A DNA stretch of 51,557 nt from Halocafeteria seosinensis. Taxonomy: Eukaryota. Made by a program: the position numbers and the translations under genes. Under the pieces are notes generated by a model, which ran no database searches, was not told the DNA's origin, and worked only from the letters and a program-made list of their open reading frames with translations. Positions 11,750-50,913 of this stretch are shown in pieces; position 1 is the stretch's first letter; each line of letters opens with the position of its first letter. The stretch covers positions 1 through 51,557 of the forward strand of contig LVLI01000550.1 in NCBI GenBank assembly GCA_001687465.1, given 5' to 3'.

Positions 11750-14420
11750 ATGCCTAATTGGGATATGAAAGGTGCTCAATCCAAGCCAACAATGGAATCT
11801 GATAGAGCCCAGTACTACGAGCAGGAACTGCTGGAAGCTGAATCGAAGTACGACGAGTTTGTCCCCGAAATAGCCGAAGAAGGCGAGGGAAAGGAAGATG
11901 GAGAGTATGATCATGGATTCAGCATTCGAGACTTGGACTCAGGGCAGCAGGTACAGATCTATGATGTTAATACAGGAGAAGGGTAAGTCTTTTTCTTGGC
12001 ACATTTTGAGAGGGTGCGGCATTACACGTCACGCGCCTCTGGGCAACGGAAGAGAGAGGGAAGGCGTAGTGGAATGAGGGTGGTAACTGGCAGTCGCTCG
12101 CATGAATATAAATGTGTTGGGTGGTTGCCCAAAAACGAGCATGTAATTCTCTGCTGTACGTGTGATGGAGGCGCGTGTGTGAGAGTGTTTGCCCCCTTGT
12201 TTGTCCCTACCACTGACACTGCCCTAACTTCAACAAGGATCCCAGGATGGCTCTGCCGAGGAATGAACTGGAGTATCAGCAACATCGTCGAGAAAATGAT
12301 AAGTGGTACTACCGTCTTTGGTTGCAAGATATTACTGCCACTAGAGGCTGCCGTCCCTCTGCTCATTAATGCGGGAAATCCGTGGGCGGAGTGCCGGTTT
12401 GGGGTTTCCGGGATACTCCTTTTGTGTCGACGCGTTCGTATTAGTTGTATATACCATATTTTACCATTTATGTTACCGGATTCGATGCAGTGGATTGCCT
12501 GCGGAGACTGAAACAGAACAGCAAGAGCAATCTCCCGCGGAGAGACAGCGTGCGGAGTCTGTCATTACCCAGGAACTGGACCAAGCGAAGGAAGTCCACG
12601 TTGAAATAGTGTCCCACTCAAATATGAAAGAAGGGAAGACATCCTACGTGGCTTACGAGATAAGCATAACGCCGCGTATCAAGGATGCTGGGTATGCTTG
12701 GAAAATCTATAGGTATGGTTGGGGTGTCTGGTCATGCTTTCGCTTGGGGGGTGTGCTTACGGCCTATTTATAGCGCAGGAGGTATAATGACTTTAGGGGG
12801 CTATATGACGTTCTGAAAAAGGAGGGATTCGAAATGAGTCCTTTTCCCGGCAGGAATTTGCTGGGTGTATTCAGCTCAGATTTCCTCGAAAAACGCCGAG
12901 TTGCACTGAATCACTGGCTGAAAGGTGTCATGGCTTCTGCATCTCCCGATGCTTTGGACTATACAGTGGTTCGTAATTTCTTAACTGAAAATGCGGAACT
13001 GACAGAGAAAATACCGGGGAGTCGTGAAGGACGTTCCAAGCCACCCGTTCCCCCTAAGAATCCGCCCCGGAGCTCGAGCAGCGGTGCGGGTCTTTCCAGT
13101 ACGGTGCGAAAGAACAAGCATATAGGGCTAGAGGATTTCGAACTCGTTAAGGTCATAGGAAAGGGGAGTTTTGGTAAAGTACTGCTAGTTCGGAAAAAGG
13201 ATGATAGAAAGACAATGGCTATGAAAATACTTTCTAAGCCGAACATAATAAAAAGGAAACAGGTAGAGCACACCAAGACTGAGAGACGAGTCCTCGGGTA
13301 TACGAAGCATCCGTTTTTGGTTCAGCTTCACTACGCGTTCCAGTCTCGAGATAAACTATACTTCCTACTGGACTATTGTGGCGGTGGGGAACTGTTTTTC
13401 CACCTGGGACGTTTGGGAAGGTTCCGAGAGTCAATGGCTGCATTTTACACTGCTGAGTTAGTTCTGGCCCTGGGACATCTACATGCAGCAGGTGTAGTCT
13501 ACCGGTAGGTTTGAGTGCTAATTGAGGCTGAATCGTCAAGTTAGAAATTTAGTCACCCTCTCTGCAGAGATTTGAAGCCGGAGAATGTGCTTCTCGACAG
13601 TGACGGTCATGTGAAACTGGCTGATTTCGGATTGTCGAAGGAAGGGGTTACGGATGCTGTGGAAGGTACAAAGAGTTTCTGTGGCACCCCAGAGTACTTA
13701 GCGCCAGAAATCCTCGATAAGAAAGGGCATGGCACCGCAGTAGATTGGTGGAGCTTGGGTATGTTGCTATACGAAATGCTCACTGGACTGCCACCATGGT
13801 ACACAAGAGATCGGAAAAAGTTATACGAAAGGTTACGCTATGCACCTCTTGAATTCCCCGATTATGTCAGTGATGAGGCACGTGACTTATTGAGTGGGCT
13901 CTTGCAGCGAAACCCAAAGAAGAGGCTTGGTGCCTCTAACGACTCAGCAGAAATTGTCACACACTCATTTTTCTCGGGCATCAACTGGGCCAAGCTCAAA
14001 TCTAGACAAGTAACCCCTCCGTTCTGCCCACGCTTCCGGGGAGGGAGCGTCGATACTAAATATTTTGACCAGCAATTTACAGACTTGCCCGCAGATGTCA
14101 CTATGCAAGATAAAGATAATGTTGCTGACCGTCGTTCGGGAAGTGAGTATGGAAGAAGCTGGAGTGGTAGTAATATCTTTGCGGGATTCACGTTTGACGG
14201 GACAAATGAGCTCCGAATCCGTGCTGGAAGCGCAAGCAGTAGAGGATCAATCACGGGCTCCTTTGGAGGCCGCGGTTCTTTCACGGATAGAGCAGCCGCG
14301 TCGCAGCTGCCGCGACAAAAAAGCAACAATAGTGGAGCCGCAGGTTTTGGCAGCAACAAGTCCTCACCCTTGTCTCATTACCAGTTGTCTCCCAAGAGCA
14401 CTCACGATGAGAATGACTAG
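11750..14420 (+). CDS. PX-domain AGC Ser/Thr kinase (SGK3/CISK-like architecture)
   Basis: PX domain: VEIVSH...YVAYEI...WKIYR|RYNDFRGLYDVL...FPGR...FLEKRRVALNHWL. Kinase domain: GKGSFGKV, AMKIL, YR|DLKPEN, DFGLSK, SFCGTPEYLAPE, VDWWSLG. AGC C-tail with hydrophobic motif FAGFTF. Confidence 0.93.
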
Positions 14421-15630: not shown

Positions 15631-16158
15631 AGTGTCGGTTCAATTCCTGAGTTCTCTACTGCCAGGAATCCTGAAGGGTGAGTGCCAGAAGATCGATGCG
15701 TCTTTTGGTGTCAATCAGCTATTTATCAAGCATTGAGGTATATGTAACTAAGGAGAGGAATTGTTGTATCATGATACATATAGATAATCAGCCGAACAAC
15801 ATGGATTGTCGATGGCCTCGCTCCGACTCGAGGCTCCGAGGCCATCGCACTGCGCGCGCTGCGGCAACTTCAACCTGAGGAGGTGCATGTAATATGCTGC
15901 AGCACTACTGCCAGGTAGGAGTGTTGAATCAAGTAATATCACTGGTTTTATTTATATTGATCTCATACCCCGTATATGGGCGTTGTCTGTCGTAAGAATA
16001 CTTATCTTGCTCCGTGTGTGTATGCTGTAGCGACCTCGAGCGTTTATTTCAGTCGCATGCACATTCGCCGCCGCGAATCGCCGGCGATTGCGAACACTAG
16101 GACCATCCAGGAGCCTTGCACGTAAGGTACTCAATACGCTTGAGTTGACGGGGGAGCA

Positions 16159-19100
16159 ATGAACGATAAAAGTGCTCCTGCCTTAGGAGAGGAGGAAACT
16201 GGCGCAGTCGCAACAAACACAAGCAGCACTGCAACCAACGGCCAGCAATTGAGCAACGACGACGATGGCGTAGGTACAGATAGTGTAAATACCAGCAGGA
16301 ACGGTGTAGAGCAAACGACGGAGACCATTGATGTTACTGAGGCTGCCAATACGCAGCATGAAGCTGCTGTTGAAACCAATCGTGCTGAACAGGCCAGTGG
16401 GGCTTACTCCAACGCCGACGGTCACGGTGCCAAACATGGACGTAAGAGATATTTATGTCAGGGTAGCATGCCGAGCTTCGTCACCTTACTTCTCCGTTTC
16501 CAAGCTGCAGATGACAAACAACACTGGCACGTCGTGAAGAGCAGTCCTCAGGATAAACGCCTGCCATTTATGCATCAAGATGACGAGAGAATGCATCTTC
16601 TCGTTTTCAACGAAGGGATGGTGTACCGTGACTATTATAAGCAGTTAGCTTCAGAGGCAGGTGGAATGTTCAAGGTAACCACAATTGGAGATATCGATTT
16701 CGCGCTTACCGTTTTACGCGACCCTCTCTGCCGTATTGTAGCCCTGATAGTCGACTTACGAGATGGCATTAAACGAGTTGAAAGGATGTTGAAGGAACTG
16801 GATAAAGCGGGTGTCCGCATTCCCTGTACCCTCGTAGTCAAAGATGCAGCGCGAGCGGAACGAGACGAACACACCGCATCGTGCATAGCTGCATGGGCAT
16901 GCCGCATGCCCTGCTTGCTAGCTGAATTCCCGTTTCCTGTCAGTCCCTTGGCGACGAAGTTACACATACTGATAGAACAATATCGTAAGGGCACCGATAT
17001 CTACGAGGGAGTACGATCGAAGAGTATCTTACGAAATATGGGAAGGTGAGTGGGTCGAATGTGGGCATAATAGTTACACGGGATCAATCTTTGATCGCTT
17101 GCAGATATAAGAACCAACATCGAGAAAATTGGATGCGAGAGCAAGTTAAGTATGCCAGCAAAGATGACACTTCCAATCTGGCAAATTTCGTGAATATGCG
17201 GCTATCTCCAAGAAGTGCCGCGTCACGAGCCGGATCTGCAGCTAGTAGAAGGTTCGGCGACTGCGAGGAATCTGTTTTGCCGGGGAAGAGTTCTTCTGTA
17301 CTGGACACTCCTTCTATTTTCGAAATATCAATACAGGAAGGAGAAGACGGAAAGGCCAACAAATTTCGCAAGAAGATACGTAAAGAAGGGAAGACCAAAC
17401 GGGGACCAATCGATTTAGACGAACTGGAGAGTGTTCCGCATGATGTGGAAGGGACAAGACGGGAATACGCGGTGGAAACCTACCTAAAGTATAGGAGCAG
17501 CGCGCCACATACTTCACGGCCTTCTAGCCCCATTAGTGAAACTGAGGGATCTTCAGAGCCTACGCAAGTAGAGACGGAGAACCAGGCTCAAAGTAGCCTC
17601 GACGCGCAGTGGATGGATCCTTTAAGATCCAATGCCGTTAGACTGAGGCGTGTGGTTTCAGCCAAGGACATGCGGAGGGGTTTTAGAAACACGAGCGTAA
17701 TTGGTAACTATGAAGCGCCCATCAGAGACATCTTCAATGCGTCTCAAGAAGGAAAAACGGATCCAAGACTCTCAGGCAATTCCGGTGCCGGAATAATTTA
17801 TGATAGATTTGCTTCCGAAAACAACACAGGAAATGAGGTTGAGGACTTCGTGAAACTGATGCAGGCCACTGATGAAGACGCAATGAAACAGACCCGAGAG
17901 GTGCTTTCACGACTTTCACATACTAGGAGCAAAAAGGAAATAATTAACAGGTAACGTATCCGGAAACTTCATCGCTGGAAGCGCCCCGCTGACCGAGCAC
18001 TTGTAATTTGTTGTGCGCAGCGAGGGAAGGACACAACGAGGAGAGGTTTTCCCAACAGAAGAAGCTGATACTACGCCAATGAATCAGGCGTGGCAGCAAT
18101 GGATGGCGTTCGGTGAGTCTCATATGTATAAAAGTTCCTTGTTCACGTTGGATGTACCAAAGTCTCTGATGTATCCCAGATATGCTCAAAGGAGATACTG
18201 TTTCGCCCTCGCTGGACAATGTCAATGATTGCTCCCCTGCCTTCCGGTGGATAATGCGAGGTGTTGGAAAACTCTATGCAACAGATCGGCAAGAAGATGC
18301 GGAAACGCTGTTTAGCCAGGCGATTCGCGCTGACCCCTCATGTTCCACAGCGTTTCACATGAGAGCAGTTGCTAGAATAAAATTGGTGCGTACATTATAT
18401 TCCCAATAAAAAAGTTTGCCTCGGGAAGACGATCATTGCGCTTCCGTTGTTTGCTTGAGTTGCAGGGACAGTATGAAGCTGCGCTCCAGGATTTGGATGC
18501 GGCCCTACTGAAGGACCCAACCCCCATTGCAAAGACTTTGTTGAACTCTACTTCGGCAACGGATCAAGGTTCAATGTACGTAACGGAATCCGGATTCACT
18601 GAGAGAAGGATGCCCACGGGGGTCATATCTGCCAACATTGCTAATCCCAATGATCCTCTCTCAAGGTTGGTTGGGATCCATTTTCCGGCTGGACGAGGTG
18701 GACTTCAGCGATCCCATGAACAGTCGGAAAAGCTGAAGAAATGTAAAGAATTTGGATCGGCTATAGCAATAGCCACGTCTACCCTCGGGGAGATGGAAAG
18801 GTCCAGTAACAGTAAGCCCGGGGGCAACAAGACGCGTACCGATGGCGATTTGAAAAGCCTGTCATCAGTATCCTCGCTTTCGCGCAAGAAAATGTTGCCA
18901 AGTCAACCCATTGATTCCATCGTGAGGGCACTTTACAATAGAGCATACGTATTTACCGGTATGTTAGTACATGTATGCTTAAATTACAACTGAAAGTGAA
19001 CAAGAATCCCAATGGCATGGGCATGCTATGATCGGGCTGCAGCTTTAGGAGATCATTTTGCCGCTTTGGATGACCTCAACGATGTGCTAGAGCTGGACAA

Positions 19101-21844
19101 TGCCTTCGGTCCGGCCTTATCATTAAGAGCCATTTTGAAACGGAGGCAAGGAGATGAGTTTGGGGCTTCAGAGGACTATCTTCGCATCCAACGGAATCAA
19201 TGGAACACAAACTCTAATCCAAGTACAAGTGGTTCATCGAACGATTTATCTGACCCTGAAAAATTGATGAGCGCTCTGCATACTTTAAACATATCGTTCG
19301 ATGACCGTTTTATTGATATGTTGGGACTGAGGCGTTTCTTGCAGTACCAACCTAAACGGACGCAAGACGCTCGCAAAGGCAGCGACCTGTCTGGAGATTA
19401 CCCCACATCTTCGGGGCATGGGCTTCCAGATATCTCCGATACCGATTTGAAGTCCATCGAAAAAGCCACTATGTTCAGAGATCTTATCCTCTCGGCGGCA
19501 CGGGAACAGGAGCAGGCGGATCCGGCGTACACTGTACAGACTCCTAAGGAGATTTTGATGAAGGAGGCGACGTCTGACCAACGAAGGATTCTTGAATCGC
19601 TACCCCTTCATGGCAAAATGCGTGTGCCAGCAGGTGTGCCGCAAAATCTGCCTTGGAACGTTCGGAAGAGCTCTGGTCGTGCATCTATGAATAACGCGGA
19701 GAACAAAGTTGGTAGACCAGGGGAAAATCATGTGGATCAAAGTGGCAGCACAGCCGAAGAAAGAGAAAACAATGCGATAGCTTCCCAAGCAGAAAGTCTT
19801 GGCAGTTCATTGGACTTGTCCGATGTTGTCTCAGGTTCGAAAGATGTGTACTCGGCGATTGTCTGTCGGCCTACAGATGCTCAGGTAGCTCTGCAAAAAG
19901 CGGCAAAGGAACGGAAAAAGCACGATCTCGAAGTTATTGAAAGTTTGATGCAGTCCTTGCTCTTCTTCCGAACATTAGATAAGACTGTACAACGTGAGAT
20001 AGCTCAGTGTCTACAATATCGTTCTTACAAGGATACGGAAACGATATGTGAGGAAAACGAGAACTTCCCGTATTTCTGCATCGTTATGACAGGTATGATG
20101 TTACTATTATGGTACAATGCATACAACTTCTTTAGTTTCGTTAAATCTATTTGGCTGCTTCTTTCCATCCAGGGCAAGTGCTAGTTAGGGTAAGCGTCCC
20201 AACAGGGGACGTCAATACTTTCTTTGTGGTAGACCATTTAAGGACGGGGGACTTTTTTGGAGAGTTAACAATGCTTTACGGAAGGCACAGGACCCTACTC
20301 TGCACCAGCGAAGGGCCTTCTACGGAACTGTTACTTCTTCATGCTGAAGACTTTTATCGAGCCGGCCTGGATAAAAAATTTCAAGAACATATTGACTTTA
20401 AACAAGATAAACTACGCCGCTGCAACGCTTTTGCAAAATGGAGGGATGACGAATTACACTGGGTACGTATTCTGATGTCGATTTTGGTTGGAACTACATA
20501 TGTATTCCTTAGTTTCCTCGGTCCACCGCAGCTTGCATGCATAGCAAGAGTCAAAACGTTTCAGAAGTACCAGACAATTATCACTCAAAATGCCTTGCCT
20601 TCTTATTTTTTCGGTAAGAGTTGAGTCAAGAGGATGCTAAGATATTGTACTGACAATATCTGGTATCTCGCAGTTCTCACGAAGGGCATTTGCTCCGTTT
20701 ACCGGAGTGGGGACGCTCTGGACCTGGAGAAGAGAATCGCAGATATGGAGGAAGAGCTTAATGCCTTAAAGTATGCAGGGGCTTATCACCGAGGAATGCG
20801 GCGTTCGACTACACTAGGAGGCAGCAAAGCGCAGTATCGTGACCCCAACACTGCCACGAGCTCGAAGAAGTCGTTCACTACCGCATCAAAGGGTAAGGCA
20901 GGAAGCGTTTTTGGGCTCTCAACGGCTTCGTTACGGGAAGAAGGAAAGGTGAAGGAACTAGAAGACGATGGGACACATCACCGTTTACTCCCAGCAACGT
21001 ATGAAGCTAGTACCGCAGTGGAGGAAAAGCGCAAGAGAACGGAGGAGCAACTGCAACAGCTCATCCGGCAGCGCGACAAAATGCATGCCAAAGCCCAGGG
21101 GAAGCAGCACAGAGTATGCTCTGGAAAAAGCTTTGGCTCGAAAGCAGCAGAATCCCCTAGTCATGTTGGCAATCTTTCTCGACGAGAAAACCGACTCAGA
21201 AGAAGCTCTTCCAGGTTGCTTCGTAGTGGTGATTCGTTCCCTTCCAAGAGTTCTAGACCACGGAGTCGCAACGACAACGATTTTGATAGCGCTAGCTTTG
21301 ACAATATAGCGCGACCTGTGGAGGAGTACCAAGACACTCGTACGGAAGGCTCAGGGACATCACCCGCGCGAAATCAGCACTCTGGTCATTCAAATGCCAG
21401 AGAAGGTGCGGATGCTCGGAATCGAAGACTGCTGATTGAAACATTGTACCCACCTGCAATCTTCGGTGAAGTGAGTGCGCAGCGATGATACTCTTGCAGC
21501 CATACAGTTTTGATTTTGCTTCGTCTATTTTGCAGCTCGCAATACTCGCTCCTTGGGATGGCTTTGAGAGAGCTAGCGTGGTCGCGGAAACCTATTGCGA
21601 AGTGCTGTGCATTCCACGGTCCGAGATCGATCACTCATTGTTTACGGATGAAAGAAAAGAAGATATTAAACGGAGAGCCATGGTATATCCTGGAGATGAT
21701 GATATTCTTAAGCAGTACAAAGATAAGCAGAAATGGACGTCCTTTAGGCAAGAAATGATGGAGACTATAAACAAATCTAAGTGGCCGATTGACAAGAACA
21801 AACTCAAGCAAAAATCGGGCGGAAAGCAAGTGTTGGTAGAATGA
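16159..21844 (+). CDS. Large multidomain signalling protein: receiver(CheY)-like domain, TPR repeats and two cyclic-nucleotide-binding domains; multi-exon
   Basis: TPRs: AETLFSQAIRADPSCSTAFHMRAVARIKL|GQYEAALQDLDAAL and ALYNRA...ALDDLNDVLELD. CNB1: LFFRTL...YFCIVMT|GQVLV...LRTGDFFGELTMLYGRHRT. CNB2: NAFAKW...YFF|VLTKGIC...IFGE|LAILAP...RASVVAETYCEVLCI. Consecutive same-strand ORFs are joined by GT-AG introns. Confidence 0.8.
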
Positions 21845-21884: not shown

Positions 21885-24800
21885 TTACAGTTTATCTGGT
21901 TGAGTCTTAAAAACTTCGTATAGATTCTGGAACGCGTCCACCCATTTGGGCACGTCTGTCTTCTGGCCAGTTTCAAGGTCCAAACTGAATTTCTCAGCGG
22001 TGATTGAAAGGCAACATGTAGGATCTACTTCTTTCCGGGAGAGCAGTTTTTTCTTATGATTAGGTCCTTTGCCTTGTTTTATTTCGGACACAGAGCGCAG
22101 ATCAACGGCCCCCAGTTTGGCTTTCGTCTTGGGGTCTTGCCAGATGATCGAGCGAAAATCTGGTGAAACCAAAACATGAGCACGTTTAGGAGTACCTTTT
22201 TTCCATACACTCATGATCTGTCCAGAACGTAACAATTGGCGGTATTCTCGCAACGGATCTTCTTCTCTCTTTGTAGTCGTTCGTACTTCTTTCGGCTCGG
22301 TTTCAGCTTCCTCAGCCTGAGCAAGATTCTCTAGCGACGAAATACTCAGGAGAGCTGACTTCCCGTAACGCTGAATTTCCTCGTCCTCCTTGTAGGTCTC
22401 CATAATGGTCTCAATTAGCTCTTTACCCCCTTCATCAATTACCACTTGAGCATTTTCTTTACTTGCCATTGCTACGTTGTCCAGTGTCTGTATACTCCGC
22501 ACCATAAGGTTTCGAGACTTGGGGTGAGTGGATATCGCCCGGATTATCGCCTGAATACCGTTGTACTGGACAAGGATCTTGATGTTACTCTCAACGAAAG
22601 CCAAATGTCCCAGCAGGCGAAAGGCCGACGTCAGAAAATCGGGGTCGTCGTGGTATCTTTCAATAGTTTGCATAATGGTGTGCAAACCATTTTCCGCGAT
22701 TATCTTGGAAAGCTCGTCATCTCCGGCTAAGCGGGTCAATGTTGCGAGACATTCAGCGCAAAAGTCTTTGCTATTCTTGTGATTGTTCAACAGCAGCAGG
22801 ATAGTGGACACTCCATCGAGATCCCGGATATTCTTCTGGGCATCCCCATCAGCAGCAAGATTCGTCATAGCAAGCTGCCCCGCAGTGAGAACGTCTTCAT
22901 TGTTCCCATGTGCTTCGATAGTAGAGAGCAATGCTTGTACACCGTTAACTTCCACGATCATTTTGACGCAGTCTTCATTGTATGTCAACGTGGCGAGCAA
23001 TGGCAAGCAATGGGCTACTATTTCTTCATCCCAGTCGTGTTGCTGCAGTATATCAATAACGACATTGACGAGACCCTGTTCCAACGCAACCTTCTTGGCT
23101 GTTTCCATGTCGTTACAGATATTGCATAAAGCATTCAGTGCCGATTTTAGAATTGAAGAATTCTGGAAGTATTTCTTCATATACCTTAAAATGGCATCCG
23201 TTCCGCCCTGTTCGTAAATGATGCTGGGGATGCTGCGATAATCGGGAGCCTTCGTCGCTCCTTCATCCTCTTCCATACTCGCGAAATTACCGAGCACTTC
23301 CATCGACAATTGGATGGCCTCATCATCGTCTGTTGCCGCGTCCATTCCCTGGACGATCACTTCAGTCGCACCGTGGTTATCCGCAATATACCTTATATTT
23401 TCATCTACATAGGACAGATTGCCCAAAGCTCTCAACGCCATCTTAAACAAATTGGTATCTCCGTAGTGCACTCGAATGATATGCGTCACTTCATCACCGC
23501 ATGTCTGACCAACAATACGCTTGTTTTCATTAGAGCCGTACATCAAGTTACTTAGCGCGCAAGTCGCATTCTCGAGAATTCTCGGGTGATTTGGATACTG
23601 CTGCATTGAATTCTCTATCCCAGTAACTCCGTCTGCCGACATGATGCGCTTTATGTTCTCGAACGAATTGAACGCCAGGTTAGCCAACACAGACAAGCAT
23701 TTCAAGATAATTTCCTCGTCGTCGATATGATTGCGTAGACCCGTGTGCGTTACTATAGGAATGCCACCACTTTGAGCAATTTGCTCTTTAAACGCATCAT
23801 TGCGGCTAACCCTTTCGAACAAAGCAAGCAGGATGCGAAGCAACGCTCTATTGTCGGGATTCGTGTTGATAGCTTGGATAATAGCGTTAATTCCGCCATT
23901 CTTTGCGATTTCTACGCAGTTTCCGGAGTTCATTGCCAATGTGTTCAAGCTCTGAGCAGCAGCCTCCAAAACCTCTGCTTGTTTTGGGTTGTTGTTCATC
24001 ACTGTTATCATCCCCGACAAAGCTTGCGAGTCGACGTTCTGCACGTTGTCCTCCTGTTGAAGGGTCGCAGCCTCTGCCATTGCTCGCAGGGATTCCTTCA
24101 TTTCGTTAAACCCTTCGGGCTCTTCCCAAGTAGTGGACCCCGTACTCATATCCACATAGTAGAACTGTCCAGAGTCTTCATCATAATGAGATTGATAGTT
24201 TGCTACCGCGGAGACAGTAGAGACCGAAGACTGAACTTTCGACTGCATAATTTTTGCCTGTTCATCAGAGAACTCATCAGCAAGACCTTCGGTGAGCTCT
24301 TCGTAGATGGAGGAAGCTTGCTCATCCTCCATAAGGACTTCCTGACACTTAGTAATTGTCCGCATCGATTCTCTATCTATCCCGCTCTCTGGTGCCCCCA
24401 TGGCGTTGACGACGTTCCGCATTACGGTTGCACAGCTCTTAACGATGCCGCGATCGGGTTCGATTACGTTGTCTTCATCCTCTAGGCCGTCTCGATATAG
24501 TTGCATTGTCTGAGCAAGGATCTGCATACTCTCGTTGTCCGCGATTGGACTACAGGTTTCCTTTGTCTGATGAGAAGTCACAGTATCGACGACTTTCATT
24601 ATTTTCTGTACTGTTTCTGCGTCGGTGATATTGGCTCCGACCATTTCTACAGCTGCTTTCAAACCGCCCTCCTGAGCAAGCAAGACACTTCCCTCAGGGT
24701 CTAATTTTATGGCGTATATGACGGACAGTGTGCTATCAGTCAAGCGGAATGCTTGTAACTTCGTTCGGTTGTCGGATTCGGCTGTCAGAGCCTTCTGATT

Positions 24801-27800
24801 CTTCACCGCGATACTCATACATTTCGCAAGACCTGTCACTTGCTTCGGCCTCGTGGAGACTTCTTCAACACTGTTATCCTCAATTCTTGCAGCAATACCA
24901 CGCATTATCTCGGTGGTCATGTCTGTGGACACGCTTCCCGAACTACCTGTGTCCCCTTGAGAAGCCAGGACCGACCATAGCGCTGTCTCGCCTCCTTCAG
25001 AAGAGCATATGCTATTGACAACACTCTCCAGTTTACCCGCGTCAGATGCATTGGCTTGAAGGACCCCACTGAGCGTCTCCGTTCCACCTTCGGAAGAGAC
25101 CATTTCGCCGGCACGCTCTTGGGCCTGGGCTGTGATTGCATTCACTGTATGCGATACCAAGGAATTCAGATTCTCATCTCCTGGGTTCTTCTTAGCAATG
25201 TTGATCATGAAGTCAAGTGCCCCCAAATCCACCATTGTGCGAACGGCGGCAGGAAAGTCGCTCAGCATTCCGAAACAACGAATAGCCGCCTCTCGTATTT
25301 GGGAGTTATCCGTGTGACTGGATAACGTGTCCATTATTACACGAACAGCGTCAACCTTATCGCTATCGCTTCCCTCCGCAGCAACACGGGATATTGAGGC
25401 AAGGCCTGAGCTAACCACATGATCGTCTGCGGTGTGCGATTCTGATAGAAGTGCCACAGCATTGACGAGCGAAGATACGACGTTCGAAGCATTGCTTTCG
25501 GTGACCACACCTTCCACCATCAAGAAATTCCCGAGCTTCTGCACGGAATCGCCTAAAGCTGAGAACATCTCCTCGGTCGTTTCCTCTGCATCCTCAATTT
25601 CTGCCGCTCTCCTGTCTACTTCATCCGCGTACTGTACTCCAAGTTCCGAAGTAGCCCCCATGCTTTGCAGAGCCTGTGTTCCCGCATTCAACACCTTGCT
25701 CGAAGTCGCATTGCTGCTCATAGCTGCCATTATTAGTCCCGATGCACCACTTTCTTCAAGACTATTGGAGAGATCCTCAATTCCGTACGCTTTACTGAGA
25801 ACAGTCAAAACCAGTTCCATGCAATCGGGATCATTGAGATATTCTTTATTCTTTTGGACAGCTTTCATTATTCTTCGCAGAGTTCCTTCGTCATGCAGAA
25901 GTCGCAGATTGTCTGAATTCCTTTCTGCGAGACCCAGTACAACCGCGGTAACCGCCCTAAACACTGACGTGTTCGTTTCTTCAGAATCGACACAATAGCT
26001 CGATACTATAGTCTTCAGCATGTTTCCAGTCCCGATCTCACGGAAGTAAGCCGCAGCTTCTGCGGCATACGCGAGTTTCGACATTAGGGTCAGAGCTGAC
26101 ACGAGTGTCTCCACTGGAGCATCTTCCCAGTTGTCGTCTACCCATTCGTTTACGACACGCTTAACTCTTGTGGTGGCTACCTGGTCCACCGTTTCTGGAT
26201 AGGTAGAAAGGGAGGCCAGAGCATCAAAGCAGCTCTTCAAATTTTGACTGTCCTTCTGCTTCTCTAATTGTTCGATTAGCCTTTCCAAAAATGCGTAATC
26301 GTTGAGTACGGTTGAAGCACCTGAGAAGGATTGTTTGGCGAAGTTGGAAATAAAATTCATGGACTCAATTACAGCAATCTCTTGATTAAGTGCAGTGCCA
26401 ATATGACTGAGCACCTGCTTTTGCTCCGGGAATTCTCCAGATGCAGCCAGGCGAGACAAGGCTAAGATCGCAGCTGGCAAGAAGGAACGCTGCTGTGCTT
26501 CCTTCGCCACTTTCATAAAGTCATCCATGATACCCACTATGGTCTTTCCACCATCTTCTTCCAATATGTCTTTACCGTAAGTGCTGACATTCGCAAAGTG
26601 GCCAATTCTCCCAATGGCAGATATCAGTTGGTAAGTTCCATCTTTCGATTTAGCCAGGGAACTTGTTGATTCAGAGAGTTCTTCAAGGGTGTCTAATGAC
26701 TGTTCGATATCGTCCCTAGTTACAAGTTTTGCCAAAAGAGAGGTACCCGCTTGAACTAGTTTGGCATTCGAGGAAGTAGCAGCCATTGCCTCCGTTACAG
26801 CATCCACGGCACCTTGCTTAACCAAAAGGTCAGAGCCTTCTGACGTCAAGGATATTCTCTCTAGGAGAGCAATGCATTTCTGGAACGACGCGGTAAAATC
26901 AGGAGTTTCTCGATTACTCTCTAACGCTGTTATAATCTGGCGAGTAGCTCCGTGCTTGGCGACCGCAAGGGCACCTTCATCTGTAGAAGCAATTCGCAGG
27001 AGGGTATCAACCGACGAACGGACAACGTTCTTTTCACTCTTGTTTGCTCTTAACGCAGCTCCACACGCTTCGATAGCACCCTTCCGCCCCAGCAGTGCTG
27101 CCCCCTCCTCACTGTACGCGACCTTTTCGAGGAACGAAACACAGTTGTTAACATGGTTCACGTTTCGGGGGTTGCCTTTCAATGAGGAAACGACTGCATG
27201 CACACCACCAGAGTCGTCCAGGGCGCGAACGTCTTCTTCACTTTTCATGGCAGTTGCAACATCATACAATGCTTTTGAGCACGAAACGAGCAGCTCCTCT
27301 CGTTTAGGAACATTGTGAGATTTCGTGACCCTCTTCAGACCATCGACCAGCGCATTAATACCTTCATTGCGCATAATCTGGGCAAATCGGGGAACAATCG
27401 AAAATGATGCGGCCTTAGTTATCATGTTTGAGGCTTCCACAGAGTTTTCTTCCGAGGGAGAGGAGAACAGCTTTGCAACAGACTTTGAGGTCGTAGTGAT
27501 CACGTTCTCCACTGAATCACCATCGACCAGTCCCCCCATTAACTCCCCGACTTCTCTTCTGACTGACTGCTCATTGTTATGCCTTACAACAGCACTCAGT
27601 GTCTTGCTTAACCCATCATGCTCTTGAATGTACTGCCTGTATTCCGGAATGAGACTTAGTGAGGTAAGCAGATAGCAACCTGCTTCGGCAGCTTCTTTCC
27701 TGTCGCTAGACTCTATAACCTTCAATGCTTTTTCGATTATGCCCTTTTCAACCATTTTCTCAATATTCGCTTCATCATAGCTCATGTAAATTAAGCAGCG

Positions 27801-29309
27801 CAGAGCATTAAGTTGAATAGACTCCGAATCCTCATGGGTCTCCATGGAGGCCAGAATCGAATCAATAACACCAGCGCTTACCAAACGTTCCATGTCATAG
27901 TCTACAGTGGCAAGGTGTTCAATAAACGCAAGACTGTTGTCAACAATGCTCTCGTCGGTAGAATCCTGTGCAAGGATTTCGATTACCTCACCGATTCCAC
28001 CGATTTCCTCAATATGCGACACGTACTCCTCGTTGGTCGCAAATTTCGTAAGGACAGACAATGCACATTGAACAACCTCTGCGTTATCTTCGTGTTCTGA
28101 TAGCATTTCAACAAGGTCCGTAGTCGCTCCTTCTCTGATGAGCCATTCGAGATTCCCCTTGCTAGTGTCTGCAATCCTACCTAAGGCTCTCGATGACGAA
28201 GTGACAGTTTTCGTATTGCCAGACTTTAAGCCTGACAAGAAAGCTTGCTGACCGCCACCTTCGACTATAGGATTGACGTTCTCCTCTTCTACAGCCAGGT
28301 TTGCAAGGAGACCGGATAAAAATTCCCTCTCTTTCTTGTTGTCTGCATTGTTCATCTTCTGCACCAAACCGGGAATATCACTGCTTGCCATTTTTGATAG
28401 AACTCGGCTTCCTGCTTTGCAAATTTTTTCGTCGCCAGCTTGCGTCTCCAGAGCTTGAGACAGTGCCCCCAATCCATCGCATCTTTCACGGATATATTCG
28501 GCATGTTCCTTATGACGGCACAGACGGTCCAATAAGCGAAACGATCCTTCTACCATGCTCCGTATATCCGTAGCCTCCGAAGATTCGTCTTTCGAAAGTG
28601 GAGAGTTTAGACTGGAGAGAACGCAGTTCACGGCTCCGGAATCCACCAGCTCCTTTGAACCACCAGGGATTTTGTTCAAGCGCTCCATCGTCCGAATCGC
28701 AGAGGCGCGTAGCCTATAGTCACTCGTGGACTCTCCACAATTATGGAGTTTTTTTAGAACGGAAGAAAAACTCCCTTGCAGCAAGGATTCGGGGCTGTAT
28801 AAGAACAGAAAAAGCATGTACATCAGAGTTCCCATAAAATACTGTATATCGTAGACTGCCACCTACTTGTACATGGAAACTGTTTCGAGCAAATCCAGTG
28901 TATCTTTGGAGCCCTCGCCTTCCGGATTTTCGATTACGCTCTCCAGCATTGACCCCATTGCACCGCTGGCGACCAGTTCTCCGGCCATTTTCGGACGCGT
29001 TGCCATCGCCGCCAAGGTTTGGTTGCAAGCTGCCAGGACCCCTTCATCACCCTTGTGTCGATTCAACACATCCGTGATAGCGTCGACAGCCCCAGCGTCA
29101 AATGCCGCGTCCAAGTTTTCTTCCCATCCCACTTGGGGAGGAGTGACGACCTTGCACAAGCACTGGACCGAATAAGAAGCGAGCTGTTTGAACTTACGGT
29201 GCTTGCGAATACTGGCGACCAGATCCACAACAGCTGCGCTGGTGCCAGCTTCCTTGCTCGCCGGTGCATGTGACGCACGCTTCTTGGCACCAATGTTCTT
29301 AGGCGGCAT
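21885..29309 (-). CDS. GAC: Giant armadillo-repeat protein (2450 aa) with internal WW and C-terminal PH domain; putative glideosome-associated connector homolog
   Basis: Two exons (29309-28867 and 28794-21885) with phase-2 intron 28795-28866 GTAGGT..ATACAG, 7353 nt in frame. Continuous ARM repeats (e.g. GGINAIIQAI...ALFERVS, CLSVLANLA, ALRALGNLS). WW: YQSHYDEDSGQFYYVDMSTGSTTWEEP. PH: LRSGQIMSVWKKG...IIWQDP...VDLRSVSEIKQG...CCLSI...WVDAF. The ARM+PH call is firm. The GAC assignment rests on architecture and on N-terminal similarity recalled from memory. Confidence 0.72.
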
Positions 29310-29906: not shown

Positions 29907-32900
29907 TTACAACTCTGCTATTGACCGAGGGTTCGCCTTGAATGCCGTCAGCAGCTCCCACAAGCTTGAGACACACCATTGTGCCACCGAGGAGCTTTCC
30001 GCTTCGCAAGCTAAGTACGACTTTTCCGAAGACAATCGTCCATGATACAGTACAAAGCAACATTCCGGATAAACAGACTTCCTTAAGTACCACTTTTTCT
30101 TGTGGCATGTTTCAACAGTCTGCTCGACTTTCCGTAACGACTTCAGATCGACGGTAACATGGTGCACCGTTTTCGTCGTATCTCTCCATCGAAGACAGTC
30201 GTTTCGCTCGCCAAGAACCATAATACGAGAAAAGGGCTTACCTTTCCACCAAACGTTCATCCTAACTCCTCTCTTTAGTTGATTTACGATGTAACTTAGG
30301 CTCTCTCTGTCAGTCTCCCCTTGGGTGACTGCTTCAGAGCTTCCACTATGCTCCTTCTCACTTGCAGGATTCTCTTCGGTGGCGTCAGACGGGGATGTTG
30401 AGGAGAATTGAGAAAGCACACGATTGGCAATTTCAGTAATTTTATCATGATCTTTATGGGCATCAGCCACATGCTCGACCATCTCCACACCTCCGGCTTC
30501 TCTCAAGAACTCTGCGTTCTCTTCCGATGATTCGGCTATGGTACCGCATATCCCAAGAGTCCAAACCAGCACGTCCGTTGCCTTCGGATGCAACGACACT
30601 GTTTCAGTTAGTAGAAGCATCCCGTCAAGTTCGATAAACATTGGAATCACGTCGCAACTTGCATTGAGGACGTTATCCAAGAGACAAAAAAGGCACCTCA
30701 AGAATGTTTTGTCTGTTTTGTGTAAACTGAATAACTGTTTCACCACCTCAAAGTTGTTTTGCAAAAGGCTTTCGGCAAGTGATACATCGTCTATCGAAAC
30801 AGTAAGGAGCACCATCGTTTCGATACACGAAGGGACGTTTTTCTCGAAGCGTTGAAGCGAAGCCATTAAAACGTCAAAAATGGAGGAATTTTGCAGGCTA
30901 CGAGCGACCACAGGAGAAAACGACAAGTTTGCCAAGACTCGCTCAACCCACGTTATCGTTTCTTCGGAGCTGCTGAAGTGATGCATTGCTTCAATCAAGC
31001 ACTCGACCCATCCGGTTTCTACTATTTGGACACTCACTGAGCGAGCAACGGATAAACAATCTAGAAGCTTCATCACATTCAAAATGATAGACTCGTCGTG
31101 TCCAACGTATTCCTTATAAACCGTGATCAGTACCGCCGCGAGGTTCTCTGCTTTCTGCACTTGTTCCGCGACTTGTGCATCGGTACACACGTTGTATAAA
31201 CTCGCAAGAGACATCAATGTTAAGGCTGAATCCTCTGTATTCTCCTTTAATAGAGAAATGACCACCCTTGGGCCTCCTTGCTCCTGAACCAGTAGCGGAA
31301 TAGGAGTCTCACTCGGGTCTGGTTCAGATTCCGGTATTGATAAGTTGCCGAGCAAACCTATACCCGTTTCTACAACTTCTCTTTCGTATTTATTCGCTTC
31401 GACTACTCGGCACACATGCTGCACTAGGCACAACTCTTCCACCATATACCGGTTATTTTCAGAGTACAGTGAGACGCAACCGATGGTACGGAGCGTCAAG
31501 AGGACCAGGTCTTCATCTTTGTAGTGTGCACGAAGCACGGATACAAAGATCTCACCGCAGGACCCCAGCACTAACGAAAGTGTTTCAGCAGAGCCGAGTA
31601 TCAAGTTGGATAAGACACACATACCCCTTCCCACGATTTCTTCGTTTCCTAAATGATTTTCCACGCAAGCACGGATCACATCTACTCCTTCTTCAAGGAA
31701 CTGGCGCTGCCCTTCTTCTGTATCCAGTGTCAAAACCGAGAGAATACCAACACAAAGTTCAACGGTTTTTTCTACATCAGTTGCACTTGCGAGACACGCT
31801 GTCACACTGTTAATGCACTTAGACTCGACAATGATATCATGAGAAGATTTCTCTCGAGTCTCATGGATGAACTGGAACACGCTAGACAGAATGTCCCCAT
31901 TCTTCGGGTTCTCCGCAATAAGGCCTACGATTGGCTCGATGATCCACGGTTCCGAAAAAATGTAGCCGTTGTTGTGGTGTCGGCTTAGAGAAACCAGATG
32001 ATCAATGGCATCTACTGTAAACTCGTTTGAGGCAGCTTCCTCCGTTAACCGGTTAACCACAAGCTCAACGTACTCTCTTTCGACAGACACCAGTTCACTT
32101 TCATTCCATGAACAGACAAGTTTAAATTTCTCCCTGCATTTTTCATCCGCGTATTTGGGGAGTGTACTCAAGTCACGCGTCTCCACCAGCAATGAATAAA
32201 TGTCGCTTAAGACCTTAGCAGGACGCTGGCTTCCGGGTTTAGCTGCAGTTGAGGGTGCTCCTTTAGGCGGTGGTGGGGGGATTGCCTTTGCATTGCTATT
32301 CCCTCTTTGGGATGAACGATGTTTGGATACTTTAGACTTCTTCTGAGCGCGGTAACCAGCATCGACGCTCGTGATTCTTCGCAAACGTTTCTGGACCATT
32401 TCGTCCAGGCCATCTTCTGTGGTTTGAGCCTCGTGCTCCCCGTTCGTATTCTCTTTATTCGAAATTTGTTCAATTGCCTGACTGCGATTGTAAATTGACG
32501 TGACGGGAAGCAGTCGTTGTGAGTGAAAGCAGGAAGTGCAACAGAATAGAAAACGCAACGTACCTGCAATTTTCCAGGAGTCCTTTGACCACCGACGCTC
32601 TGTTTGCGAAGGCTTCATCCTCGTATATAGCTTCAATAACTTCGTCAACGATACCCGAATGTATGATCGCCCTCGGTCTAGAAACCATAGGCTCTATGCA
32701 CTGCATGCACAAGTTGAAAACGTCGTCGTCCGCTTGATGCCGATTCATTAATTTTCTAATCGAGTCTAAGACTCCTAGATTCAGACACGCGTCTATCTTC
32801 TTCTCTCTGTCTAGATTCGAGGAAGTCTGAATCATGTTCAGAATGCATGATACCGAGTACAGAGCTAGTTTTTTAAACTTTCGGTGCCGATTAAGGTTGT

Positions 32901-32964
32901 TGACCTGGGTACGGGCCCATTCCAGGTCATCCGCCGTGGGTGTTTGCTGTTCCATTGACGCCAT
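29907..32964 (-). CDS. Shorter ARM-repeat+PH protein (991 aa); tandem paralogue of the 21885-29309 gene
   Basis: Exons 32964-32564 and 32481-29907 with phase-2 intron GTACGT..CGCAG, 2976 nt in frame. It aligns by eye to the neighbour at the N-terminus (RHRKFKKLALYSVSCI vs KHRKFKQLASYSVQCL), in the late ARMs (CVLSNLILGSAET...SCGE...RAHY vs CALSNLMYGSNEN...TCGD...RVHY) and in the PH domain (VWWKG...VDLKS...HKKK...CC vs VWKKG...VDLRS...HKKK...CC). Confidence 0.88.
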
Positions 32965-33402: not shown

Positions 33403-36400
33403 TTACTTTTGCTGTTTTAGAGAGGTAGATGATGAAAAGCTAAGCATTGTAAACGCGAAAGCGACAAGCCCGGGAGAACTCCAATAAGCGCGATGCGCAT
33501 TTCGAGCCGCAATGTAGTCAAGTTTCTGCGGGGAAAAGAGTGCAGAAGCCAAAATACGGTGGACTAGGTAACGTAAAAACTTCGAGTTGTAGAAAGGCAA
33601 ACATACATCAAAGTGACTCTGTCCGCGCGGGATCTCGAAATCGATAGGCTCACCTTGCTTCCATGCCTCTACTAGTTCGTTTGCCTCCTCCTCGACTTCC
33701 GCAAATGGGTCTGAGGTTAAATTCGATGACGCGAAATAGCGTTGCATCAGGTCAGGCTTTCCTGATTCTGAATAGCTTTCACTCTCCGAAGCTTGCGAGT
33801 TCTTGCTGCTACCCCTTCTGGGAGGTGGTGGGGGAGGACTGTCCGTTTTCGAAGACGCCCCTCTCAACAGACTCTTGTTAGCCATCGATGACAACTCATC
33901 CCGTGACATTTGAAGTGCGACTTTAAGAAAATACTTTGCATCCGTACTTTCAGGCTCCATTACTGAGAAAGGGTAAGGGGAGGCCAAGTCCGCGATACCT
34001 TTCCCTGACGACACTTCTTGTAACGAGGCAGCTAAGAGTGGAGATAACCTCATGGCGACAGGGTCGCAGTCATGATACAAATTGAAATACTTAATGCCTG
34101 CCTTGCGTAGTGCCTTATACTTTCTCTTTATCTCCTCGGGAACAAGGCCGCGAGTTGTCAAATACAGTGCAATAGGACTCCCCATAGAGAAAAAGCACCG
34201 CGGTGAAAAACAGAGTCTTCCAGACTTAGACGACAGTAAATCGAATGCAATAACTGCACAATCATATAAAAAGCAGGAGCTTGGACGAGCTTGGACGAAT
34301 ACAGGATGAGTATTGCTATGGAAGGAAATAGCAAACTCACCTCCGCCGAGACTGTGACCAAATATTGCAAGGTTTAAGTGCTCCGTTTTGCCAACACAAG
34401 GGTGGCCAATCAAGTATTGCTTGTATTGCAAATTAAGTTGTTTAGCTACATGAGCCTGAGAAAGCAGCGGAGAAAATAGTGCAGGGAGTAGCGACAACAT
34501 TGCGGGGCTTATTTTACTTACTCGAATTCGATCTCCAAAGGGTCCGAAATAATTTGCACCGTTTACAAGGGTATTTGAAATGAAGTTTCGTAGCCGAGGT
34601 AGAGTTGACAGTTTTACAGTTGATAAGAGGGAAGATACTTGATGTAATTTACTTTGGGTTTGATCATCAGATTCACCGGGAAGATCGTTCGGAAGAATCT
34701 CGGTCGTAACTGTGGTTTTGCTAGCGGCTGATCTACCGACACTGCCCAGTGGGCTGATAGGACCACTGAGGGATCGCTGCATTTGAAGCGGAGTTTGGGG
34801 TAAATTCCCCATGCTGTCGTCACTGTCCGAATCTTCATCTGCTTCCACGGAGCTCCTCCCACTAGCCCGATTGCTGCTTGTGTAGCGAAGCGTTTCCTTG
34901 TTACTTTCTATATCGGTATCTGTTCTAGAGTGCCATGAAATGCCTTTGAGATCTATCCGTGCCACCCTTGCATCCACGCTTTCCTGTTCCACCGCTTCGT
35001 AGAAAGCGGAGTACATACGATTTACCTGTGCAACAAGAAGGAATACAACTCACAACAGTTGCAAACCTAGTAAAACCTCCTGCACAAGTCATACCTTTCT
35101 TGCCATCTTTTCTTTACCATGGTTTCCGACTCCGTGTAGCAGGAATACTAAATGATTTGACGAGTGCAACTTAACACGGGGTAGGGGAAACCTCAGTGAA
35201 AATGTTGCAGAGCCCGGGTTTCCTTCGACCAGGAGAAATCCCGCACCATAAAGCTCTTTCATCTTATGCGGTGTGGCGATTACCTTTCGGATCCATTTTC
35301 GGCGCCTGACGCGTTCCCCTCCCAATGATTTCTTAAACGAACCGATTCCGATACTACTTATTGTTGGCGGTCTCGGTCGAAATGTAAACGGTTCGTCCCA
35401 TGCAGTGGCATATTCCCAACCTCCACTGGAGGCAATCTTCTCATATTCCCACTTCGTCCTATTAACGTGCCTGCTATTGGAAGCTTGCGATTCATTACCT
35501 TTTCCCGGAAGCACGCAGCTATCTGGAAGCTCCACCTGCCACTCCGAGTGAGGATCCCAAACCCATCCAGTGGAGTCAACAGACGGAGAAAACTGAAAGC
35601 TCGTGTCTGATCCATATCTTCTACCAGAAGAATATGGACTTGAGGTATCGTGTGGGACGCACAGGCCACCAGCGATGGCTAGCTCTGCGGCTACTAACTG
35701 CGTAAGGGAAGTTGAGCTGGCTGGCCTAACGTCGCCTTCAGTGTGCCGCGAGCAACTAAGTGTAGGATGCAGTTCCATAGCAATTGCTCCTCTGGTATCA
35801 ACTTTCTTCGTCTTATCTGGCTCATTTGAGGCTTCTGCTTCTCCATCGTTGAATTCTACAACTTTTAAGGGTACAGGATGTTCAGCGCCCTTCTGTTGAC
35901 GCGGGTGCTGTGGTTGAGCACTGCTATCGCTTACCCACATTGATGAACCATGCAGTCGCGAATGCCAGCACTCAGTCGTTTCGTCCTTGTGTGCGTCGCT
36001 GTGTAATGGGTTTTCTTGTTGGAAGGGTACAAAACTTCGAGGGCCTCGCCACGCGTTTTCGGGTTCTTCGTCAGGATACGGCTCACTACACAAGCTATAC
36101 AGGGGAAAATATCCATCTGGGTCGCTTGAAAAGGGACAAAAGTTCTTCGGGGACGGCCTCCAGTTGTTGATCTTGGAATCAAAGCGCTGCCGTTGATAGA
36201 CTTCTACATATGCCGTCACCGTGTGTTGGCTCAAGTCATTGCTGTATTTGGCCACTTCTTCCTCCGACATCCAATGTTTGATTGTCGATACAGTTGCATC
36301 ATCTGCATTAGTGTGGTCCTCTGGGCCACCCACATCCAAGGAAAGATCTGGAAGATTGTCTTTATTTGAGTCTGCCTGGTACTGCGTGGAACTCACTGTC

Positions 36401-50363: not shown

Positions 50364-50913
50364 TGTCCTCCGACGACTTCCACTCTTCCGTAAAGAAGTA
50401 TGCCCCTGTTTCTTGAAACGACGCTTTCGATAAAGTCTACTTCTATTGAATAGAACCGATACATGCGGTGTGGAGGGCGTCCAGGAGGGTCTTAGACTTC
50501 GTCGCTCCCTCCCTTTGCTACTGTGTCTCTGCTTCCACGCTCTTAATCGACTATCCACTTCCGAAAGGTACGTTTTCTCTTTGGATTCCCGCGATGAGGC
50601 TTTCTCAGCTATTTTGTCTGTAAGGATGAATACTTGTCAGAAAAACAAAAAAGCAAGGGTTATTCCGTCTCGTAATCAACTCGTCAACAGCATTTGCGTT
50701 TCCCCTGGCATATCTCCATACTGGTGATACTGACAAGAATCACTGACATTTTCTACAACACCTCTTTCCACTCTTGGCAACCCCCTCGCACCTCTGTAGT
50801 GTCTACACCGCACGTGACAGTTGAATGACGTGGTTTCAGAACCGTCGAACAAAGGTTTGGCTGTTTCCCGCACCCCAACCTCGAAGCGAAGGAATCTCGA
50901 CCTCTTCGAGATC

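What the first reader, a model, noticed from the sequence alone, without database searches (positions are those of the whole stretch)
21885..29309. Putative glideosome-associated connector (GAC) homolog in a non-apicomplexan protist
Seen in the sequence: a 2450-aa protein made almost entirely of ARM repeats and ending in a PH domain. Established: apicomplexan GAC is a ~280-kDa ARM solenoid with a C-terminal phosphatidic-acid-binding PH domain that bridges F-actin to adhesin tails during gliding, and it is usually treated as an apicomplexan/alveolate innovation. Inference: the N-terminus (LVASIRKHRKFKQLASYSVQCLCKVVTP...EENLDAAFDAGAVDAITDVLNRHKGDEGVLAACNQTLAAM) matches my recollection of the Toxoplasma GAC N-terminus (ASIxK..F....YS...L....P.....N...A...G.........DE.V......L.AM). 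If orthologous, an actin-membrane connector of this type predates the stramenopile-alveolate split and may serve attachment, gliding or feeding in a free-living lineage.
Basis: partly seen in the sequence, partly recalled or inferred. Interest (0 to 1): 0.88.

Follow-up and report, generated by a model that had tools for sequence, protein, structure and literature searches.

The report
Parasite gliding connector relative in stramenopiles
This spliced gene encodes a 2450-residue armadillo-repeat protein ending in a PH domain that is a distant, full-length relative of GAC, the actin-to-membrane connector described as unique to malaria-type parasites; it likely comes from a stramenopile and likely links actin to membranes there too, so this connector would be older than those parasites.

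Summary
It belongs to an undescribed family (named members: Cafeteria, Cantina, Hondaea). The family profile ranks Toxoplasma GAC first in the PDB (E 1e-55), aligns to apicomplexan GAC end to end (score 727 against at most 600 in 20 shuffled or permuted controls), and the predicted fold of residues 1-936 ranks GAC first in Foldseek. Homology is therefore well supported. Strict orthology is less sure: a shorter family (Paulinella) scores as high with the GAC profile, two middle modules do not match on their own, and only the N-terminal tree joins this family with GAC. GAC's insertion and some lipid-binding residues are absent. The gene directly upstream is a spliced 991-aa tandem paralog that keeps the N-cap, arch and PH but lacks the ring. 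Function (actin-membrane link) is inferred, not tested. No paper found reports stramenopile GAC; one supplement lists candidates in other alveolates.

The parts
21885..29309 (-). GAC-like gene, 2450 aa: N-cap, kinked ARM ring region, WW, ARM arch, PH
28867..29309 (-). exon 1 (residues 1-148), holding the N-cap that matches TgGAC repeats 1-2
28795..28866 (-). 72-nt GT-AG intron with an in-frame stop
24195..29246 (-). ARM/HEAT region equivalent to GAC region I (about residues 22-1680), with kink motifs near residues 284, 570, 838 and 1192 (window about 28388, 27530, 26726, 25664)
24117..24194 (-). WW domain near the region I / region II hinge; absent from apicomplexan GAC records
22302..24116 (-). 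canonical ARM arch equivalent to GAC region II (about 13-14 repeats against 16), without GAC's helix-loop-helix insertion
21903..22241 (-). basic PH domain (net charge about +7), PLC-type by sequence
29907..32964 (-). tandem paralog, 991 aa 'mini-GAC': N-cap, proline-rich linker, ARM arch, PH; lacks about 1550 residues of the ring; 82-nt GT-AG intron at 32563-32482

Best explanation
This is a spliced, full-length homolog of the apicomplexan glideosome-associated connector, likely from a stramenopile and likely descended with GAC from one ancestral SAR gene, and it likely works as GAC does, tying cortical F-actin to the membrane. Shown here: the gene, its splicing, the ARM-WW-ARM-PH layout and homology to GAC at both ends with a near-constant register between. 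Predicted: a kinked ARM ring like GAC coil 1. Inferred from GAC biochemistry: the ring binds and stabilises F-actin, the basic PH domain binds anionic lipid (not necessarily phosphatidic acid), and the chain opens and closes about the hinge. Inferred from domain knowledge: the WW domain at the hinge recruits a proline-rich partner. The cellular job is most likely force transfer in surface attachment or feeding rather than apicomplexan-style gliding. My odds: homology 0.93, orthology 0.65, actin-membrane link 0.55.
For: Family profile A1 ranks TgGAC first among 177,635 PDB sequences (E 1e-55; next 6e-40, a designed ARM protein). Profile-profile alignment covers 2261 columns, residues 22-2442 against 9-2624, with only four gaps of 20 or more. 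Native score 727 against 337-581 in 14 block shuffles and 361-600 in 6 circular permutations. Model of residues 1-936 (pLDDT 88) has TgGAC as Foldseek ranks 1-2, TM 0.52-0.54, all other listed rows 0.46 or less. Straight designed ARM proteins fit that model mainly between residues about 285 and 571, the first two kink positions; four kink motifs fall in register with GAC, near where repeat counts in the two structure papers put them (residue numbers are my arithmetic). Bridge protein P0224 aligns collinearly with this family (score 968) and has TgGAC as its only PDB match at E 1e-15 or better (2e-28). N-terminal tree splits this family plus GAC from family B plus the Ploeotia record (99/95; both alternatives rejected, p-AU 0.023). 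PH domains of all 24 family members with a PH are net basic, +3 to +13. An earlier AI note reports a myosin fused to a GAC-like tail in Plasmodiophora (a lead, not tested).
Against: Pairwise identity to GAC is only 10-23% per 200-residue block and ARM repeats align easily (second-best registers score 436 and 378). Windows of 250 residues pick the diagonal in 7 of 19 cases, none between residues about 520 and 1770; modules 3 and 5 match other GAC modules better than their own. Residues 149-2450 alone did not list GAC among the 60 PDB rows shown of 61; the Plasmodium GAC search returned 18 proteins, none of this family. Family B members score up to 291 bits with the GAC profile against 240 for this protein and share as many conserved sites with GAC (30 against 21). 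The C-terminal tree rejects neither GAC+A nor GAC+B. The C-terminal model ranks GAC only 11th (Foldseek) and 34th (VIA), and GAC is not among the 50 VIA rows for the N-terminal model. The KER motif and the beta-1 lysine used for phosphatidic-acid binding are not conserved in this protein. No functional data exist.
Confidence: 0.6

Rival explanations
1. It is an ancient paralog of GAC, not its ortholog: the long and short ARM-PH families arose by an early duplication, and GAC descends from the short (B) type or a lost copy.
For: Families A and B are far closer to each other (score 1370) than either is to GAC (727, 631). The C-terminal region and the PH helix motif of B resemble GAC at least as much (330 against 254). 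Several lineages carry extra copies or truncated forms.
Against: B lacks about 500 residues that A and GAC both have at the same place. The N-terminal tree rejects GAC+B (p-AU 0.023).
Confidence: 0.25
2. It is a GAC homolog by descent but does another job, such as a membrane-bound signalling or trafficking scaffold whose WW and PH domains recruit partners, without binding actin.
For: WW domain not seen in GAC; PH closer to PLC-gamma by sequence than to GAC; GAC's insertion and KER motif absent; mini forms that lack the ring exist.
Against: Size, N-cap, kink positions and basic PH are kept over a very long time; all coils of TgGAC bound actin, including vertebrate actin, in one study, so binding may not need lineage-specific residues.
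Confidence: 0.3
3. The likeness is generic ARM-repeat similarity, with no special kinship to GAC.
For: Low identity, off-diagonal windows in the middle third, C-terminal model fits many ARM proteins equally.
Against: Start-to-start and end-to-end register including the PH domain, native order beats all 20 permuted controls, GAC ranks first by profile and by N-terminal fold, bridge protein.
Confidence: 0.05

Closest known systems
Glideosome-associated connector (GAC) of Apicomplexa; Toxoplasma structures 8c4a and 8bt6
   Same: Giant ARM/HEAT solenoid of similar length, same N-cap sequence at the same place, four kink motifs in register, canonical ARM arch, C-terminal basic PH domain, acidic overall composition.
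   Different: About 15% identity; WW domain near the hinge; arch about 2 repeats shorter; no helix-loop-helix insertion in repeat 50; KER and beta-1 lysine not kept; host is not an apicomplexan by gene tree; a ring-less tandem paralog lies beside it.
Putative GAC orthologues in non-apicomplexan alveolates (Koreny et al. 2021, PMC7951837, S3 Table)
   Same: Already places GAC-like sequences outside Apicomplexa: my reading of the GAC column gives Chromera 1, Colpodella 2, four Tetrahymena species 1-3, two colponemids 12 and 6, Vitrella 0, Perkinsus 0 (10 of about 157 rows seen for this), Tiarina 6.
   Different: Counts only, alveolates only, not discussed in the text seen; no architecture, no stramenopile or rhizarian rows; the GAC FASTA lies in the cut part of the archive and was not seen.
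Short ARM-PH family 'B' (about 1820 aa; two Paulinella chromatophora records), undescribed
   Same: Same N-cap, first kinks, arch and PH; collinear with this protein.
   Different: Lacks about 500 residues before the arch and the WW domain.
Generic ARM proteins (Vac8, beta-catenin, importin-alpha, LRRK2 ARM region)
   Same: Repeat fold; source of the misleading label 'Vacuolar protein 8' on the Hondaea member.
   Different: Far shorter or other domains; no shared N-cap, kink pattern or terminal PH; lower profile scores.

Membership tests
Apicomplexan GAC | About 2600-aa ARM/HEAT solenoid ending in a PH domain | tested here: met
   2450 aa; Pfam and two models
Apicomplexan GAC | N-terminal cap homologous to TgGAC repeats 1-2, at the N-terminus | tested here: met
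   top PDB hit, start to start; His24 equivalent kept as His37, Asp11 not kept
Apicomplexan GAC | End-to-end collinearity | tested here: met
   modules 3 and 5 rest on register, not on their own scores
Apicomplexan GAC | Four kinks that coil region I into a ring or pyramid | tested here: inconclusive
   motifs in register; model of 1-936 ranks GAC first in Foldseek but at rmsd 16-17; not in VIA top 50; the fourth kink lies outside the model
Apicomplexan GAC | Helix-loop-helix insertion in repeat 50 that stabilises the closed form | tested here: not met
   gap opposite Neospora residues from about 2271; feature from PMC10125020
Apicomplexan GAC | PH residues that bind phosphatidic acid (beta-1 Lys, RK, KER) | tested here: inconclusive
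   basic loop kept at the RK place and net +7; beta-1 Lys is Ser and KER is TDV in this protein
Apicomplexan GAC | Reciprocal best match and one clade with GAC | tested here: inconclusive
   forward yes; reverse word search no; N-terminal tree yes, C-terminal tree unresolved
Apicomplexan GAC | Closed form latched by an N/C interface | not tested
Apicomplexan GAC | Binds F-actin, phosphatidic acid and adhesin tails; needed for gliding | not testable with these tools
   needs bench work
GAC-like ARM-PH superfamily (defined here) | Shared N-cap motif, kinked ARM modules, conserved arch and PH of one type | tested here: met

The most novel reading that the evidence does not exclude
Probability: 0.35. 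Interest if true: 0.88.

Novelty: new variant of a known kind. Interest (0 to 1): 0.72.

Why it matters
Two papers state that GAC is unique to Apicomplexa (10.1101/2022.12.09.519741; PMC9250747). A slow-evolving full-length family in stramenopiles, with a shorter one in Rhizaria, would move the origin of the central force-transmitting part of the glideosome back to the SAR ancestor. It makes a standing question testable in harmless, culturable organisms (Cafeteria, thraustochytrids): what did this giant spring do before parasitism, and does it serve actin-based attachment such as the labyrinthulid ectoplasmic net. The natural deletion forms also mark out which modules can be spared.

Tried and rejected
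No whole genome is held for the window, so copy number beyond the window is unknown. No listed run is on record as RNA; splicing rests on contigs that skip the introns and on transcript-derived records. The 18S piece could not be classified. The ESM Atlas gave only generic ARM clusters for residues 149-580; a query with the C-terminal part did not complete. Foldseek and VIA on the C-terminal model do not separate GAC from other ARM spirals; VIA on the N-terminal model lists no GAC in its 50 rows. No named oomycete, diatom or other ochrophyte appeared among hits, but word searches scored only about 8000 candidates each and most hits are unnamed, so absence is not shown. The Aurantiochytrium ectoplasmic-net proteome paper (PMC12221091) had no occurrence of my terms in its text or four supplements, so no expression data were found. 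The original GAC paper and the journal version of the Labyrinthula genome paper are not held. Rejected: frameshift or pseudogene (the stop lies in a real intron); Vac8 orthology (size, N-cap and PH differ); treating the record labelled Batrachochytrium as a fungal member (it nests among stramenopile-type sequences; likely mislabelled, my inference).

Full report
Observation. The minus-strand frame from 29309 to 21885 is interrupted by one stop, inside a 72-nt GT-AG intron at 28866-28795; splicing gives 2450 aa, letter for letter the transcript-derived record P0003. Contigs of 3 of 4 public runs skip exactly these bases and the fourth holds them (one study). Pfam finds ARM-type families along the chain, a WW domain above cut-off at about residues 1682-1707 and a weak PH match at the end. 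AlphaFold2 models of residues 1-936 and 1660-2450, each folded with an alignment of relatives, are confident (pLDDT 88 and 91) and show ARM repeats, a three-stranded WW and a PH fold.

The family. A word search found 12 proteins at E 1e-5 or better: the protein itself, 9 full-length relatives at 26-60% identity, one 1823-aa protein and a Plasmodium GAC. A search of cluster representatives with exon 1 gave 232 hits, 150 listed, and a profile search added more. In all I hold 53 sequences of 2200-2900 aa that score over 800 bits with the family profile (11 are members of clusters already counted, and 25 built the profile). Most carry no name. Named ones are Cafeteria roenbergensis/burkhardae, Cantina marsupialis, Hondaea fermentalgiana, one MMETSP record whose name is cut, and one record labelled Batrachochytrium salamandrivorans that nests among the others and is likely mislabelled (inference). 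The window's protein sits in a supported clade with Cafeteria, with Cantina next and Hondaea outside, so the host is likely a heterotrophic stramenopile; the 139-nt 18S piece could not confirm this, and the lifestyle is unknown.

Relation to GAC. Exon 1 alone ranks TgGAC first in the PDB, start to start (E 2e-7). The ten-member profile ranks it first at E 1e-55. Profile against profile, the family aligns with 12 apicomplexan GACs over 2261 columns, residues 22-2442 against 9-2624, with offsets of -2 to -52 up to residue 1600 and +93 to +182 after 1800, and four gaps of 20 or more (one search gave the same with other sets). The native order scores 727; 14 block shuffles score 337-581 and 6 circular permutations 361-600. 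The N-terminal model has TgGAC at Foldseek ranks 1 and 2 (TM 0.52-0.54, rmsd 16-17; other rows TM 0.46 or less). TgGAC has four kinks between repeats 6-7, 13-14, 19-20 and 27-28 (10.1101/2022.12.09.519741, section read); at about 44 residues a repeat (PMC10125020) these fall near 265, 575, 845 and 1200, and kink-like motifs at 284, 570, 838 and 1192 align with Neospora 263, 561, 816 and 1186. Straight designed ARM proteins fit the model mostly between 285 and 571. P0224, a transcript record whose organism the tool does not give, bridges the gap: collinear with this family (score 968), with TgGAC as its only PDB match at E 1e-15 or better, and a PH that scores with all three profiles.

Limits of that case. 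Identity is 10-23% per block. Short windows choose the diagonal at both ends but not in the middle (7 of 19), and modules 3 and 5 do not prefer their own partners. Residues 149-2450 alone did not list GAC among 60 PDB rows shown, and a Plasmodium GAC search returned 18 proteins, none of this family. The C-terminal model fits many ARM spirals as well as GAC and VIA does not list GAC for the N-terminal model.

Ortholog or paralog. A second family (B, about 1820 aa; 13 in my tree; 2 of 8 looked up carry an organism, both Paulinella chromatophora) has the same N-cap, arch and PH but lacks about 500 residues before the arch. It scores as high with the GAC profile and shares as many conserved sites with GAC. 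A 2045-aa record labelled Ploeotia vitrea is B-like and starts with an IQ motif (weak likeness to the myosin V neck); contamination is not excluded. In trees A, B and GAC each form one side of a branch. The N-terminal region joins A with GAC against B plus Ploeotia (99/95; alternatives rejected at p-AU 0.023); the C-terminal region rejects none of four groupings tested (p 0.10-0.32). There is no outgroup, GAC is on a long branch, and these trees used 21-22 chosen rows (62). One ancestral SAR gene is the simplest reading; an early duplication remains open.

Differences from GAC. WW lies near the region I/II hinge: the model residue after it aligns with TgGAC 1668, the region II start; WW-like sequence is visible in most of the 25 aligned members and degenerate in a few. 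The helix-loop-helix insertion of repeat 50 is absent. The PH is basic in 24 of 24 members that have it, PLC-gamma is its best PDB match, and of the lipid-binding sites mapped in PMC10125020 the basic loop is kept while the beta-1 lysine and KER are not. I therefore file it as GAC-like, not as an apicomplexan-type GAC.

The neighbour. The gene directly upstream (ATG 32964, stop 29907, 82-nt intron skipped in 3 of 4 runs) gives 991 aa, 99% identical to record P0138. It matches family profile positions 12-129 and 1691-2414 only, with a proline-rich linker between, and its best relative among the proteins held is the window's own full-length protein (24% over 703 residues). It is a diverged tandem copy that kept the N-cap and arch, the parts that latch closed TgGAC, and lost the ring that binds actin. 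A regulatory role is a guess. Four unnamed B-type proteins of 866-980 aa show another deletion: first modules plus PH.

Mechanism. By analogy with GAC (abstract, passages and named sections of PMC10125020 and 10.1101/2022.12.09.519741 read), the ring would bind F-actin, the PH would hold anionic membrane, and the hinge would let the chain act as a spring; WW would add a proline-rich partner (general knowledge of WW domains, recalled). None of this was tested. An earlier AI note of this scan on a myosin-GAC-like fusion in Plasmodiophora points the same way but is a lead only.

Novelty. Searches for the connector with stramenopile, with ancestor and free-living, and for GAC with gliding, origin, free-living, actin and stramenopiles gave 0 papers; searches listed none on this family (listings seen). 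Passages in two papers call GAC apicomplexan-specific. Two caveats: the S3 Table of PMC7951837 counts putative GAC orthologues in other alveolates (419 SAR proteomes were searched but only alveolates are reported; the GAC FASTA was not seen), and the Labyrinthula preprint mentions an unnamed glideosome protein in a supplement I could not see (passages), which may be this gene. Subscription papers, including the original GAC paper, are not in the library.

Verdict. Real, spliced gene; a distant full-length GAC homolog in an undescribed stramenopile family, with a WW insertion and a ring-less tandem paralog; likely ortholog; function inferred. New variant of a known kind; interest 0.72.

Noticed in passing
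window 29907-32964 (-): Spliced 991-aa tandem paralog of the GAC-like gene lacking the ring; on record as P0138 without annotation.
   Followed up: yes
P0085 (record labelled Ploeotia vitrea), residues 19-38: B-like ARM-PH protein that begins with an IQ motif, possibly the cut end of a myosin fusion; would extend the family to euglenids unless it is contamination.
   Followed up: partly
P0116, P0137, P0183, P0208: Unnamed 866-980-aa B-type proteins with the first ring modules and the PH but no arch.
   Followed up: partly
P0224 and P0206, near residue 575 of P0224: Long-type homolog with a copy of the N-cap motif inside the chain, hinting that the ring grew by module duplication.
   Followed up: partly
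P0230: Family member labelled Batrachochytrium salamandrivorans that nests among stramenopile-type sequences; the assembly may be mixed or mislabelled.
   Followed up: partly
P0105, P0161, P0195, P0209: Proteins of 3500-4160 aa with the same N-cap and scattered matches to the family, much expanded; no names.
   Followed up: no
window 1-139 (-): 5' end of an 18S rRNA gene at the contig edge, next to protein-coding genes.
   Followed up: partly
window 1248-4114 (-) and 6475-10092 (-): MutS domain III and V fragments; a 1205-aa frame with no Pfam or PDB match upstream may belong to the same gene.
   Followed up: partly
window 12774-14420 (+): PX domain plus protein kinase with C-terminal extension, SGK-like layout.
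   Followed up: no
window 16144-21844 (+): Multi-exon gene without Pfam hits per exon; by eye it holds TPR-like and cyclic-nucleotide-binding-like stretches; its transcript contig runs into that of the convergent GAC-like gene.
   Followed up: no
window 33403-35049 (-), 47258-48184 (+), 48789-50636 (-): DDHD-domain protein (a family that includes phosphatidic-acid-preferring phospholipases, recalled) just upstream of the two GAC-like genes; a DEAD-box helicase; an alpha/beta hydrolase.
   Followed up: no
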